Shown: piece after piece, positions 59-2,172 of the stretch
Numbering within the stretch: the first letter of the stretch is position 1
Layout of the letters: every line of letters starts with the position of its first letter
IMG/VR virus record: IMGVR_UViG_2703718778_000002
Location: 1 to 6,661 of that record
Length of the DNA: 6,661 nucleotides
Source: a virus
Lineage: Duplodnaviria; Heunggongvirae; Uroviricota; Caudoviricetes
Strand: one strand, 5' to 3'
Program-made: the position numbers and the translations under genes
Notes under the pieces: generated by a model
The model's input: only the letters and a program-made list of their open reading frames with translations
Told to the model about the DNA's origin: nothing
Database searches by the model: none

Positions 59-1948
59 TCAGAGTGAATCTGTCCCGCCTGATTTGACCATACCGCGATA
101 ATCCAGAGCTGCCACACCTGCATCAATACGGACTTTCCAGGCCACGCCGTCAACGATAAAACCTTCCTGCTGTTCAAGGTAAGGCTCGTCATTGCCATCA
201 AGATAAGCCACCTCGATTGTGTCCGTTCCCTGTGCGGAAAGCATGTACCATTGTTTTTCGCTGATATCATCAAGGCGGGGATCGACGATGATATCAAGTA
301 GCTTGTGATACGGGTTAAAGATCCCGCTGTTTTTATCAGCCCCGAAAGGTGCGGTTGAGTTAATCATCTGCAACGCGCGATCTTCCAGTGCTGCCGGAAC
401 TAAAAGGAATTTAGGCGCAATATTCAGCACTTCGCCATTTTTGTCCTTCTGTGTGCGCATCAGGTGACGTGCTGCACTAAGTCCCGGTGTTGTCAGTCCT
501 GCTTCAATCAGGTTGCTGTGTTTTTTGTCAAACAGCGTTATTCCGTCAGAAAGTTTTACGTTGCCTGTAAGCACCAGATTAACCAGATTTCCCACCGTTC
601 TTGATGCTGCACGGCCCATAGCCATTGGCACCGTTGATAACTGATCAAGGTCATCATTGATTATCGCCTGGCGGGTAATGCTGAAAATATTCCCGTAAGT
701 AGCCAGCGCGATGGGTTCACCGCGATCGCTGGTGGTGATGTATTTATATTCTGCCCCTTCCGGCACTTTGTTTAACGTTGAGAAGCCATTCATACCAACG
801 CGGCGGGCTTCCCGGAAGTTTGAAAGGGAACCTTTTTTCGTCCACTGGCGGAATGTTTCGCCGCTGTGCTCCCAGCCTGCAAGCACTGATTTTTCAGCGC
901 CACCAGCAAGGATATCGGTAAAATCGCTGCTGCTGTGGGTGAATGCCGCGTTTACTATCTGCGAGCGTGTGCTGTAGCTGCCCGTGCTTATACCACGATG
1001 GGTTAATGATGCCTGTGCCATATCGAAAAGGCTCATCATGGCGTAAGGATTACCGCGTTCGGCCCGTTCGTGACCAAGACGCGCATTAAGCCCCTGACGC
1101 ATGGCATCGCCGGTTATATTGCCGTTATCCGTGTACGCGTAGTAAAGATTTGCGGGGGTGGTTTTGTTTGTTGGCGTTGATTCTTTACCCATAGCGAGTA
1201 AAAGGCGTTCGCGTGCATTCTCAACGCTACATTCTGAATCCGCAAGACAACTTATAGCCAGGTCGTTATATCTTCCGTTGAAGGTGCCAAACAATTCACG
1301 GATTCCGTTAAGTCGTTCCTGTTCGCCACTGCCAGTTTTCTGGCTGATCATGCTTTTAATTTTTTCCGGCATATTTGAAAAATCTCCGATTCGTTTTGAT
1401 TCAATTCGGGCCATTGCTGTAATCGCGGGTATAACCTCATCTGCGAAGCCGTTAGCCTTACACTCATTGCCATCCATCCAGGTTTCCGCCTCCATCATTG
1501 AGGTGATCTCCTGTTTGCTCCTGCCCGTTCTTCCGGCATAGGTTTCTGCCATCGTGTCGCCCAGCTTGTCCATCAGATCAGCAAAGCGGCGAACGTCGCC
1601 CGACACTCCGGCAGTAACACCACGGGGGGCATGTATCATCATCATCGCGTTTTCAGGCATAACGATGTGATCTCCACACATGGCAATAAACGACGCCATA
1701 GAAGCTGCCATGCCTTCAATGTGTACGATTTTTTTTGCCGGATGATTTTTCAGAGCGTTATAGATAGCCAGCCCTTCAAAGATGTCGCCACCAGGTGAAT
1801 GAATGCTCAGATGGATTTCAGACACATTACCGCACGCGTTGATCTCGTCAGTAAGTGCCGATGCCTTTACACCGTACCCGCCGATCTCGTCATAAATGCG
1901 CACATGTACAACATCTGCCATAGCCTTAATGGAAAACCATGTTTTCAT
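59..1948 (-). CDS. Prohead serine protease (ClpP/S14-like) fused to an HK97-fold major capsid protein, 629 aa
   Basis: ATG start with the upstream stop overlapping (ATGA at 1945-1948). N-terminal ~170 aa carries ClpP-like signatures: IHSPGG, GMAASMAS (candidate catalytic Ser) and MIHAP (candidate His). C-terminal ~300 aa reads like an HK97-family capsid protein (recognition from the translation, not an alignment), with a ~150-aa linker between them that could act as scaffold. Confidence 0.85.
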   Translation of the reverse strand: MKTWFSIKAMADVVHVRIYDEIGGYGVKASALTDEINACGNVSEIHLSIHSPGGDIFEGLAIYNALKNHPAKKIVHIEGMAASMASFIAMCGDHIVMPENAMMMIHAPRGVTAGVSGDVRRFADLMDKLGDTMAETYAGRTGRSKQEITSMMEAETWMDGNECKANGFADEVIPAITAMARIESKRIGDFSNMPEKIKSMISQKTGSGEQERLNGIRELFGTFNGRYNDLAISCLADSECSVENARERLLLAMGKESTPTNKTTPANLYYAYTDNGNITGDAMRQGLNARLGHERAERGNPYAMMSLFDMAQASLTHRGISTGSYSTRSQIVNAAFTHSSSDFTDILAGGAEKSVLAGWEHSGETFRQWTKKGSLSNFREARRVGMNGFSTLNKVPEGAEYKYITTSDRGEPIALATYGNIFSITRQAIINDDLDQLSTVPMAMGRAASRTVGNLVNLVLTGNVKLSDGITLFDKKHSNLIEAGLTTPGLSAARHLMRTQKDKNGEVLNIAPKFLLVPAALEDRALQMINSTAPFGADKNSGIFNPYHKLLDIIVDPRLDDISEKQWYMLSAQGTDTIEVAYLDGNDEPYLEQQEGFIVDGVAWKVRIDAGVAALDYRGMVKSGGTDSL

Positions 1949-2139
1949 AGCCAGGCTCCTAACGTTGCCCTGTACCAGTATTCAACCGCGCTGCGTGTGA
2001 TTTGTCCTTTCGTGGGCACTGGCATACCCGGGTGATTATCTTTGATGAACTGCTGATAGCGTTCGATCTTCTCCATAGTTCCGGCGTCTATGTGTACCGT
2101 GGCACTTTTATCCGGCTTTCTGGTGTTGTTCTCTGGCAT
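1945..2139 (-). CDS. Small hypothetical protein (64 aa) translationally coupled to the protease-capsid gene; possibly a small DNA-binding or assembly protein
   Basis: Internal ATG at 2139 is preceded by GGAGG with a 7-nt spacer; the ORF-track start at 2172 has no Shine-Dalgarno. Its stop overlaps the downstream ATG. Function is not recognisable from sequence; a ribbon-helix-helix-like fold is only a guess. Confidence 0.45.
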   Translation of the reverse strand: MPENNTRKPDKSATVHIDAGTMEKIERYQQFIKDNHPGMPVPTKGQITRSAVEYWYRATLGAWL

Positions 2140-2172
2140 ACATCCGCCTCCGTTTTGATTAACGGGCATCAT

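What the first reader, a model, noticed from the sequence alone, without database searches (positions are those of the whole stretch)
59..2172. Stand-alone protease-capsid fusion unit sitting directly behind a replication module
A single 629-aa protein combines a ClpP-like prohead protease, a linker and an HK97-type capsid domain. With one 64-aa partner it forms a transcription unit bracketed by intrinsic terminators on both sides, immediately after the primase/ori/SSB block. Ordinary tailed-phage head operons place the capsid gene amid terminase, portal and scaffold genes. A self-processing capsid gene adjacent to a P4-type replication module suggests a capsid-forming satellite or a capsid-remodelling island.
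Basis: partly seen in the sequence, partly recalled or inferred. Interest (0 to 1): 0.7.

Follow-up and report, generated by a model that had tools for sequence, protein, structure and literature searches.

The report
Capsid cassette of a phage satellite
The stand-alone protease-capsid gene is real, but it is the late-gene cassette of a known kind of E. coli phage satellite (a Gram-negative PICI) that borrows portal, terminase and tails from lambda-like helper phages, and what such satellite capsid genes do is still untested.

Summary
A 629-aa ClpP-like protease/linker/HK97-type capsid polyprotein (59-1948, minus strand) is translationally coupled to a 64-aa ORF (1945-2139). Hairpin terminators bracket the pair, downstream of a P4-family primase, ori iterons and SSB.

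It is the late cassette of a ~10-kb Gram-negative phage-inducible chromosomal island (PICI). Related complete islands carry an integrase, an AlpA-type regulator and no portal, large terminase, tail or lysis genes, so it is not a capsid-forming PICI.

Both "terminators" are the leading parts of two direct-repeat cos sites. These align with lambda cosQ/cosN and are up to 91% identical to the cos region of lambdoid phages (1720a-02, CP-1639, mEp460, Stx phages) that carry the same Gifsy-2-type capsid gene. In 4 of 9 sampled genomes the island sits inside that helper prophage's terL.

Satellite copies form their own clade: at least 57% identical to each other, at most 52% to phage copies, always with the 64-aa partner, lacking ~30 residues of the linker, dN/dS 0.05-0.07.

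Capsid genes in Gram-negative PICIs and helper-embedded PICIs are published. Function is inferred: satellite-made shells assembled on helper portals.

The parts
59..1948 (-). 629-aa polyprotein gene. ClpP-like prohead protease (about aa 15-172, nt 1433-1906; Ser83 at nt 1700-1702, His106 at nt 1631-1633). Linker/scaffold (about aa 174-329, nt 962-1429). HK97-type major capsid domain (aa 330-623, nt 80-961).
   Evidence: (phrog_133). dN/dS is 0.05-0.07 between close island copies.
1945..2139 (-). 64-aa partner ORF (longest reading 75 aa from 2172), translationally coupled to the fusion by an ATGA overlap. It belongs to a small satellite-specific family and may bind DNA (ribbon-helix-helix-like pattern, unproven).
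   Evidence: phrog_4934 E 2e-42. No Pfam or NCBIfam hit. Only 7 relatives among 1.84 billion representatives. Present directly upstream of every satellite-clade fusion and of no phage-clade fusion. hhalign to the small ORFs preceding other PICI capsid genes: Prob 75%, E 2.6e-5.
2147..2199 (-). Promoter-like site TTTATC (2199-2194), 17-nt spacer, AATAAT (2176-2171), then Shine-Dalgarno GGAGG (2151-2147) for the 64-aa ORF.
   Evidence: Read. The motif GTTTAYCTAYYACTTTTATCGATCAATAATG is conserved between E. coli clades I and II and Kluyvera, with an equivalent TTTACG-N17-TATGAT in Yersinia, Rahnella and Moellerella. It was not found by the consensus scan, so promoter function is inferred.
2331..2373 (.). 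12-bp GC-rich hairpin (2331-2366). It is followed by T7 on the plus strand and has only a U4 tail on the coding strand. It occupies the position where other island clades have a co-directional intrinsic terminator ahead of the cassette promoter.
   Evidence: (z -3.7 for the plus strand). Only sub-threshold Rfam hits here (STnc130 E 0.58, ctRNA_p42d E 0.18).
2430..2567 (-). cos copy A. cosQ-like AGGTACT (2565-2559, 2 mismatches to GGGTCCT). cosN-like ACG|GGGCGGAGGGGC (predicted 12-nt end at 2534-2523). cosB-side sequence 2522-2430.
   Evidence: Aligns with the lambda cosQ-cosN junction and with the cos regions of mEp460 and 1720a-02. 90-91% identity over 142 nt to phages 1720a-02 and CP-1639, just upstream of their terS.
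2568..2590 (-). Intrinsic terminator after SSB (AGCCGGA-GAAA-TCCGGCT plus a T run). It is the first part of the 51-nt direct repeat.
   Evidence: The same hairpin precedes cos in EcCICFT073 and EcCIIHE3034.
31..52 (-). Intrinsic terminator after the fusion gene (GGCGGC-ACCA-GCCGCC plus T6).
   Evidence: mEp460 has an annotated terminator at the equivalent place.
1..30 (-). Start of cos copy B, with a perfect cosQ GGGTCCT at 28-22. The window ends 3 nt before the cosN-like ACGGGGCGG seen in near-identical islands.
2606..5337 (-). Context: the replication module. P4-family primase/D5 helicase (3589-5337), ori iterons GGTAGA... (3355-3588), a small ORF (3025-3354), SSB (2606-3028).

Best explanation
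The unit is the late (morphogenesis/packaging) cassette of a cos-type Gram-negative PICI.

Shown:
- The island has its own integrase, AlpA-type regulator, primase, ori and SSB, but no portal, TerL, connector, tail or lysis genes.
- The cassette has its own terminators and a conserved promoter-like site.
- Two cos sites of the same family as the cos of lambdoid phages with a Gifsy-2-type tripartite capsid gene flank it.
- Islands carrying the same cassette are found physically embedded in such prophages.
- The satellite gene belongs to a separate, selectively maintained clade with a satellite-only 64-aa partner.

Inferred:
- After helper induction the polyprotein assembles through its internal scaffold segment. 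Its ClpP-like domain then removes the protease and scaffold, leaving a ~300-aa HK97-fold shell protein.
- The shells form on helper portals. Helper terminase, acting at the island cos sites, fills them with island concatemers. Helper connectors and tails finish the particles.
- The shortened linker/scaffold suggests shells that differ from the helper's, possibly smaller. That would reserve capsids for the island and cost the helper.
- The 64-aa protein probably regulates the cassette or marks island DNA.
For: Domains and catalytic residues. Capsid-domain homology to solved Mu-GpT-type capsids.

Island anatomy without portal, TerL or tails. Island size is 9.8-10.8 kb between att cores.

cos homology.

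Helper-embedded copies: inside terL of prophages with DUF1441 TerS, portal and a phage-type fusion, or inside the helper's own fusion gene.

Clade split:
- All 6 loci from other genera with at least 57% identity have the 64-aa ORF upstream and no portal there, and so do the E. coli clade II islands at 62%.
- 39 of the 40 full-length loci at 52% identity or less have a portal homologue upstream, 38 of them about 1.5-1.7 kb away. The exception, L046, shows only a decoration-gene match.
- No record among 50,697 phages exceeds 51.5% identity.

Selection and integrity: purifying selection with dN/dS 0.05-0.07. The module is in 151 of 5426 complete E. coli genomes and full length in 143.

A ~30-35-aa deletion in the linker is shared by all satellite copies.

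Literature: capsid genes are the commonest late genes in Gram-negative PICIs (PMC10111431). Ccm of SaPIbov5 is a capsid homologue that redirects assembly (PMC8569155).
Against: - There are no functional data for this cassette.
- Deleting the lambda-type capsid homologue c1499 of EcCICFT073 changed neither transfer nor interference, and that island is packaged as phage-length DNA (PMC6092414, PMC6739421).
- Four island units (about 39-43 kb) roughly equal one helper genome (44.5-47.3 kb). Small capsids are therefore not required.
- Structure prediction failed for both proteins (pLDDT 41 and 63). No structural argument about size or portal compatibility can be made.
- The promoter and the role of the 64-aa protein are inferred from conservation only.
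- The window itself does not show the island ends.
Confidence: 0.6

Rival explanations
1. A captured helper late gene with no role of its own. PICIs repeatedly pick up helper late genes by recombination near cos, or while embedded in late operons. The capsid gene is then a passenger, or at most a spare copy for the helper.
For: - Deletion of c1499 and c1500 in EcCICFT073 gave no phenotype (PMC6092414).
- The HE-PICI paper proposes capture and a 'backup copy' role (PMC10111431).
- Cassettes of different capsid types sit on the same backbone.
- In two helper-embedded cases the helper's own fusion gene is broken while the island copy is intact.
Against: - The satellite copies are not recent captures. 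They form a clade at most 52% identical to any phage copy, spread over six genera.
- They share a linker deletion and a satellite-only partner ORF.
- dN/dS is 0.05-0.07, and 143 of 151 copies are full length.
Confidence: 0.2
2. An interference weapon. The satellite polyprotein (protease and/or capsid subunit) poisons helper capsid assembly or maturation, without contributing to the satellite's own particles.
For: - Classical PICIs typically interfere with helper capsid formation or packaging (PMC6739421, PMC6893505).
- About 50% identity could allow mixed, defective assemblies.
- Clade I has unusual substitutions next to the catalytic His (IHAPRG against IHKPWG).
Against: The complete protease-scaffold-capsid architecture is kept under strong purifying selection, with catalytic residues intact. 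That is more than a poison subunit needs. There is no direct evidence either way.
Confidence: 0.12
3. An ordinary head module of a degraded prophage, as in the reader's own refutation scenario.
For: In 4 of 9 sampled genomes portal, terminase fragments and tail genes lie within 2-10 kb.
Against: - In those loci terL is split exactly around an element bounded by its own integrase.
- The prophage has a second, phage-type fusion gene after its portal.
- The same cassette occurs at three chromosomal att sites with no phage genes nearby.
- The gene upstream is never a portal.
Confidence: 0.03
4. A capsid-forming PICI (cf-PICI) that makes complete capsids and steals only tails.
For: It encodes a capsid protein, a maturation protease and a scaffold. 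Sister islands (clade II) also encode a small terminase.
Against: No portal, TerL, HNH or head-tail connector genes occur in any of the complete islands examined. These are defining cf-PICI components (bioRxiv 2022.09.08.507074; PMC10085698).
Confidence: 0.03

Closest known systems
Gram-negative PICIs of E. coli (EcCICFT073, EcCIIHE3034 and relatives; Fillol-Salom et al. 2018, 2019)
   Same: - Same backbone and order: int, AlpA-type HTH, Icd-like, DUF4222, primase, ori, SSB, then a late zone of small ORF plus capsid gene, cos site(s), a 93-aa ORF and att.
- Same att sites (cspD-clpS, yejM/tRNA-Pro) and the same ~10-11 kb size.
- Even the terminator hairpin before cos is shared.
   Different: - The capsid cassette here is a single Gifsy-2-type protease-scaffold-capsid polyprotein, not the lambda gpE-like capsid plus gpD-like decoration pair.
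- Both cos copies are of the mEp460/1720a-02 type, direct repeats that flank the cassette. EcCICFT073 has lambda-type, inverted copies around rppA.
- This island has no Rpp and no TerS.
Tripartite capsid gene of Salmonella phage Gifsy-2 and of lambdoid phages mEp460, cdtI, CP-1639, 1720a-02 and some Stx phages (Effantin et al. 2010, cited from memory)
   Same: Same three-part architecture over the full length, 48-51.5% identity, same NCBIfam and PHROG family.
   Different: The phage genes always follow terS-terL-W-portal and precede the decoration and tail genes. The satellite copy follows a 64-aa ORF instead, lacks ~30-35 residues of the linker, and belongs to a separate clade.
Helper-embedded PICIs (HE-PICIs; PMC10111431)
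   Same: Islands with the same cassette (97-99.9% identical) are inserted in terL of lambdoid prophages in RM10466, O157:H7, O121:H19 and O103:H2 strains, and carry BRO-N genes. Kluyvera and Rahnella relatives are inserted in the helper's capsid-fusion gene.
   Different: The window's replication region matches the chromosomal cspD-clpS island best (97.5% over positions 1-5653; primase 1749 nt as in L002 and EcCIIHE3034). This copy may therefore not be embedded. The window does not show it.
Ccm of the cos-type SaPIbov5 (Staphylococcus aureus)
   Same: A capsid-protein homologue carried by a cos-packaged satellite that otherwise uses helper virion proteins. This is the only proven precedent for what such a gene can do: redirect capsid size and shape.
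   Different: Ccm has no protease or scaffold domains and is unrelated in sequence. Nothing comparable has been demonstrated for this cassette.
Capsid-forming PICIs (EcCIEDL933)
   Same: Shares the PICI left arm and encodes capsid and protease functions.
   Different: cf-PICIs also encode portal, connectors, HNH, TerS and TerL. None of these lies in this island.

Membership tests
ClpP-like prohead protease / major capsid fusion (NCBIfam NF045540; Gifsy-2-type tripartite capsid gene) | Full-length match above the curated cut-off | tested here: met
   888 bits against a cut-off of 475. phrog_133 E 2e-280.
ClpP-like prohead protease / major capsid fusion (NCBIfam NF045540; Gifsy-2-type tripartite capsid gene) | N-terminal ClpP-fold serine protease with catalytic Ser and His | tested here: met
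   CLP_protease E 4.7e-33. NF045542 head maturation protease 200.9 bits against a cut-off of 120. Ser83 and His106 invariant in the alignment.
ClpP-like prohead protease / major capsid fusion (NCBIfam NF045540; Gifsy-2-type tripartite capsid gene) | C-terminal HK97-fold major capsid domain | tested here: met
   Phage_capsid_4 E 1.2e-54 and Mu-like_gpT E 7e-9. A profile of the domain hits solved capsid proteins 8rkx/8rkc (E 7e-12) and 9jod (E 5e-10). The fold itself was not confirmed by modelling (AF2 pLDDT 41).
ClpP-like prohead protease / major capsid fusion (NCBIfam NF045540; Gifsy-2-type tripartite capsid gene) | Sits in a head operon directly after the portal gene | tested here: not met
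   Preceded by the 64-aa ORF and cos/SSB. 39 of 40 phage-clade loci have a portal homologue upstream and no satellite-clade locus does.
ClpP-like prohead protease / major capsid fusion (NCBIfam NF045540; Gifsy-2-type tripartite capsid gene) | Self-cleavage to a mature capsid protein in particles | not testable with these tools
   Needs expression and mass spectrometry.
Gram-negative PICI | Primase/replicase followed by an ori with iterons; unidirectional gene order | tested here: met
   TIGR01613 109.7 bits against a cut-off of 108.7, plus D5_N, DUF5906 and Pox_D5. Iterons at 3355-3588. All credible ORFs are on the minus strand.
Gram-negative PICI | Own integrase, AlpA-type regulator and defined att sites, size about 8-15 kb | tested here: met
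   These lie outside the window. They were seen in near-identical islands L001, L002, L087 (Phage_AlpA), L091, L098 and L099. att core repeats lie 9.8-10.8 kb apart at the published cspD-clpS site.
Gram-negative PICI | No lysis, tail or complete head/packaging gene set | tested here: met
Gram-negative PICI | Induced, packaged and transferred by a helper phage | not testable with these tools
   Only indirect support: helper-type cos sites and helper-embedded copies.
Capsid-forming PICI (cf-PICI) | Island-encoded portal, large terminase and head-tail connectors | tested here: not met
   None in any complete island examined. tblastn with mEp460 TerL, W and portal finds them only in flanking helper prophages.
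P4-like satellite | sid, psu, delta and epsilon genes alongside the alpha primase | tested here: not met
   Only the P4-family primase domain is shared. No window ORF matches these families in Pfam, NCBIfam or PHROGs.
Helper-embedded PICI | [quoted passage not shown] | tested here: inconclusive
   True for 4 of 9 sampled islands with this cassette and for Kluyvera and Rahnella relatives. The window does not reach the island ends.
Ribbon-helix-helix DNA-binding proteins (for the 64-aa ORF) | Beta-alpha-alpha fold and profile similarity to RHH families | tested here: inconclusive
   AF2 gives two helices (19-35, 49-60) after an extended segment, at low confidence. PDB profile hit to a CopG/Arc/MetJ chimera at E 1.2.

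The most novel reading that the evidence does not exclude
These islands may be 'shell-only' capsid-forming satellites, a stage between classical PICIs and cf-PICIs. A single self-scaffolding, self-processing polyprotein would build satellite-specific, possibly smaller, shells on stolen helper portals. Helper terminase would fill them from the satellite's own cos sites, and the conserved small partner protein would control the switch. The capsids of the transducing particles would then be made of satellite protein, not phage protein.
Probability: 0.3. Interest if true: 0.7.

Novelty: new member of a known kind. Interest (0 to 1): 0.35.

Why it matters
Capsid genes are the commonest phage-derived genes in Gram-negative PICIs, yet the only one tested (lambda-type, EcCICFT073) had no phenotype. 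Their role is therefore an open question.

This cassette is a good test case:
- A single gene carries protease, scaffold and shell.
- It has been kept under strong purifying selection in a satellite-only lineage.
- The likely helpers are identifiable. They include Stx-converting and related lambdoid prophages of STEC (O157, O121, O103, O111, O145), where the island often sits inside the prophage's terminase gene.

If the satellite makes its own shells, that would change how transduction and Stx-prophage fitness in these pathogens are understood. If it does not, the gene is a well-preserved puzzle. As an object, though, it belongs to element families already described in 2018-2023.

Tried and rejected
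1. Structure prediction of the fusion with a 13-sequence alignment gave mean pLDDT 41. The 64-aa ORF gave pLDDT 63. Both are too poor for fold searches, so none was run.
2. Is the 64-aa ORF a TerS or Rpp mimic? An apparent likeness to the lambda Nu1 wing was seen by eye. BLASTP against mEp460 TerS found nothing (E 4.9), and Pfam at E up to 10 found nothing. The idea was dropped.
3. The RHH assignment of the 64-aa ORF is not significant.
4. Is the 93-aa ORF downstream of the cassette Rpp? No. RppA is the 144-aa c1503, and no Rpp homologue was found in relatives.
5. Is the island the published EcCI042? No. That element is at tqsA (FN554766 1832521-1843554). The cassette in the record named E. 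coli 042 (NZ_CP042934.2) is at cspD-clpS.
6. 'cos type always matches capsid type' is only partly true. EcCIIHE3034 keeps an mEp460/1720a-type cos after SSB although its cassette and its other two cos sites are lambda-type.
7. An Rfam scan of the window gave no hit near any gathering score.
8. The consensus promoter/terminator scan missed both minus-strand terminators and the conserved promoter-like site. These rest on direct reading, folding and cross-genus alignment.
9. Co-occurrence of the island with helper-type prophages across all 5426 genomes could not be computed with the tools. Only the marginal counts are available: 151 genomes with the cassette and 2070 with a phage-type fusion.
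Full report
**What is in the window.** All credible genes run on the minus strand. Read in that direction the order is:
- small ORFs including a DUF4222 protein
- a 582-aa P4-family primase/D5-type helicase (3589-5337; TIGR01613, D5_N, DUF5906, Pox_D5)
- a 234-bp gap full of GGTAGA-type iterons and inverted repeats (3355-3588)
- a small ORF, then SSB (2606-3028)
- a 435-bp gap
- the 64-aa ORF (1945-2139)
- the 629-aa ORF (59-1948)

**The fusion protein.**
- It matches CLP_protease at aa 42-173 (E 4.7e-33) and Phage_capsid_4 at aa 330-623 (E 1.2e-54).
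- It matches NCBIfam's dedicated model for 'ClpP-like prohead protease/major capsid protein fusion protein' at 888 bits against a cut-off of 475, and phrog_133 at E 2e-280.
- The ClpP catalytic Ser (GMAASMAS, Ser83) and His (MMIHAP, His106) are present and invariant among relatives.
- A profile of the C-terminal domain finds solved capsid proteins: Mu-GpT-domain proteins 8rkx/8rkc at E 7e-12, and 9jod at E 5e-10.

**The partner ORF.** It is best read as 64 aa from the ATG at 2139, with GGAGG seven bases upstream. Its stop overlaps the fusion start (ATGA). RefSeq annotates 195-nt homologues.

**The terminators are parts of cos sites.** Both minus-strand hairpin/T-run terminators exist:
- 2590-2568, after SSB.
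- 52-31, after the fusion.

They are the first third of a 51-nt direct repeat (4-54 and 2541-2591, 76% identity). In near-identical islands the repeat continues for another ~100 nt. Aligned with phage lambda, the repeat covers the lambda late-end hairpin, cosQ (GGGTCCT) and the cosN junction. The lambda sequence TTACG|GGGCGGCGACCT corresponds to CCACG|GGGCGGAGGGGC here.

A search of 50,697 phage records with window 2430-2600 finds only 23 records. All are E. coli lambdoid phages, matched just upstream of terS:
- 1720a-02 and CP-1639, at 90-91% identity over 142 nt
- Stx2 phages
- VT1-Sakai
- mEp460 and relatives

These are the same phages whose head operon has the closest phage homologues of the fusion protein. 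The unit is therefore flanked by two direct cos sites of one helper family:
- Copy A (upstream) has a helper-like cosB side but a degenerate cosQ (AGGTACT).
- Copy B (downstream, cut by the window edge) has a perfect cosQ and a diverged cosB side.

Whether this split has a function, such as initiation at A and termination at B, is speculation.

**Own promoter region.** Between cos copy A and the 64-aa ORF there is a strong hairpin (2331-2366) and a promoter-like TTTATC-N17-AATAAT (2199-2171). In other island clades and genera the same position holds a clear co-directional terminator followed by the same or an equivalent promoter-like motif.

**What element it belongs to.** The window's backbone matches 1879 of 5426 complete E. 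coli genomes. The capsid cassette itself matches 151 genomes and is full length in 143.

Complete relatives are 9.8-10.8-kb islands bounded by att repeats. Their gene order is integrase, AlpA-type HTH, YlcI, Icd-like, DUF4222, primase (or RepA helicase), SSB (or PerC), 64-aa ORF, fusion, a 93-aa ORF, then the island end. They carry no portal, TerL, connector, tail or lysis genes.

This is the published Gram-negative PICI layout. It uses the published att sites cspD-clpS and yejM/tRNA-Pro (PMC6092414, Table S1). EcCIIHE3034 and EcCICFT073 have the same backbone and the same 93-aa terminal gene. Even the hairpin before cos is the same. Their cassettes differ: a 68-aa ORF plus a lambda gpE-like capsid and a gpD-like decoration gene.

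The literature states that major capsid genes are present in 21 of 29 reference Gram-negative PICIs and are not required for transfer of the one tested (PMC10111431). Deletion of c1499 and c1500 in EcCICFT073 had no phenotype (PMC6092414).

The element is not a cf-PICI, which would need portal, TerL and connectors. It is not P4-like either, because it has no sid, psu or delta.

**Helper relationship.** In four of nine sampled genomes the island with this cassette is inserted inside terL of a lambdoid prophage. These are RM10466 (cassette 99.9% identical) and O157:H7, O121:H19 and O103:H2 strains. The prophage order is DUF1441 TerS, terL 5' fragment, the island, terL 3' fragment, W, portal, phage-type fusion, decoration, tails.

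In Kluyvera genomosp. 1 and Rahnella victoriana, related islands are inserted in the helper's own fusion gene at codons ~98-112. These are helper-embedded PICIs as described in PMC10111431.

It does not make the unit an ordinary head module: the prophage gene is split around an integrase-bounded element and has its own, different fusion gene. The window's positions 1-5653 match a cspD-clpS island best (97.5%). Its ends are not in the window.

**A satellite-specific lineage.** Across one genome per species, the split by sequence identity to the window protein is clean:

| Identity to window protein | Loci | Upstream context |
|---|---|---|
| at least 57% | Kluyvera (2), Yersinia, Buttiauxella, Moellerella, Rahnella victoriana; plus E. 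coli clade II at 62% | A 64-aa-family ORF 150-190 nt upstream; no portal; a primase close by where it could be detected |
| 52% or less | 40 full-length loci | 39 have a portal homologue upstream, 38 of them ~1.5-1.7 kb away, usually with terL and terS ahead of it |

Further points:
- No phage record exceeds 51.5% identity.
- All satellite copies lack 29-35 residues that phage copies have between the protease and the scaffold-like helical region (after residue 207).
- dN/dS between close island copies is 0.05-0.07.
- The 64-aa family is tiny, with 7 hits among 1.84 billion representatives.
- That family aligns by profile with the small ORFs that precede other capsid types in reference PICIs (Prob 75%, E 2.6e-5). 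'Small ORF plus capsid gene' looks like a general PICI late-zone design.
- Its ribbon-helix-helix look could not be confirmed.
- Sister islands (clade II, very common: one protein on 365 contigs) also carry a DUF1441 small terminase after the second cos. The window's clade does not.

**How it most likely works.**

Shown: the anatomy, the cos homology, the helper association, the separate clade and the selection.

Inferred:
1. On helper induction the cassette is expressed.
2. The polyprotein assembles through its internal scaffold, as in the Gifsy-2-type phages (Effantin et al. 2010, from memory).
3. The protease domain trims it to the shell protein.
4. The shells use helper portals, are filled by helper terminase at the island cos sites, and are completed with helper connectors and tails.

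The shared linker deletion hints at altered, perhaps smaller, shells, by analogy with Ccm of SaPIbov5 (PMC8569155). Against this, four island units roughly equal one helper genome, EcCICFT073 is packaged as phage-length DNA, and its capsid homologue is dispensable.

I put about 0.9 on 'late cassette of a Gram-negative cos-type PICI with lambdoid helpers of the 1720a-02/mEp460 head type'. I put about 0.4 on 'the satellite protein forms or co-forms the shells that carry the island'.

Rivals:
- A functionless captured gene. The old, selected, satellite-only clade argues against it.
- A pure interference factor.
- An ordinary prophage head module. Rejected.
- A cf-PICI. Rejected.

**Novelty and score.** The element type, capsid genes in such islands, their cos sites and the helper-embedded configuration are all published. 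The NCBI annotation pipeline already names this fusion protein.

Several points were not stated in the papers I read:
- This cassette type, a tripartite polyprotein plus a conserved small partner.
- Its flanking by two direct cos sites of the mEp460/1720a-02 family.
- The clean satellite/phage clade split, with a shared linker deletion.

That makes it a new member of a known kind, useful for the open question of what PICI capsid genes do, but not a surprise. Interest 0.35.

Noticed in passing
window 1-54 and 2430-2591; L001 13900-14054 and 16430-16590: Two direct-repeat cos sites flank the capsid cassette. Copy A has a degenerate cosQ but a helper-like cosB side. Copy B has a perfect cosQ but a diverged cosB side. 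The predicted cohesive-end sequences of the two copies differ (GGGCGGAGGGGC against GGGCGGGCGGCG).
   Followed up: partly
L095 2474-5765; L096 3787-5814: In two of four helper-embedded cases the helper prophage's own protease-capsid gene is inactivated, while the island's copy is intact. In the O157:H7 strain IS1203 is inserted in it. In the O121:H19 strain it has an internal stop.
   Followed up: no
L011 3236-3571 and 14500-16146; L078 2660-2986 and 14124-15203: In Kluyvera and Rahnella, relatives of the island are inserted inside the helper prophage's own fusion gene at codons ~98-112 (the conserved PENAMMMIHKPWG region). The island carries its own copy, 54% identical by tblastn to mEp460's fusion; the interrupted helper gene is the one 69-78% identical to mEp460.
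   Followed up: partly
L092 6700-6830, 9140-9240, 10050-10120: The reference island EcCIIHE3034 carries three cos sites of two types: an mEp460/1720a-type after SSB, a lambda-type before its terS, and an inverted lambda-type after terS. This suggests such islands collect cos sites for several helper families.
   Followed up: partly
window 2331-2373: A strong hairpin is followed by T7 on the plus strand, that is, antisense to the genes, with a plus-strand promoter-like site at 2261-2290. Rfam gives only sub-threshold hits here (STnc130, ctRNA_p42d). It could be an antisense RNA or a bidirectional terminator.
   Followed up: partly
window 3355-3588: The gap after the primase gene is packed with GGTAGA/TCTACC iterons and inverted repeats. 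This is the expected PICI replication origin.
   Followed up: partly
window 5865-6146 and 6091-6369: Two overlapping small ORFs match the C-terminal (63-154) and N-terminal (1-76) halves of one 154-aa PHROG family (phrog_2512). This may be a split gene or a frameshift.
   Followed up: no
window 1622-1636 (aa 105-109): E. coli clade I has IHAPRG next to the catalytic His, where every other satellite copy and phage 1720a-02 have IHKPWG (mEp460 has IHKPFG). The same conserved stretch is the integration target of the Kluyvera and Rahnella embedded islands.
   Followed up: no
L001 13470-13525 (just beyond the 93-aa ORF, outside the window): Five GTGAC repeats at roughly 10-nt spacing lie near the island end. 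They may be recombination-directionality or integrase arm sites.
   Followed up: no
L010 7382-8225; L011 12060-12903; L078 12441-13049: In other genera the fusion gene and its cos are followed by a short TerS-like HTH ORF and a ~200-aa ORF of unknown family. The window's clade has only the 93-aa ORF there.
   Followed up: no
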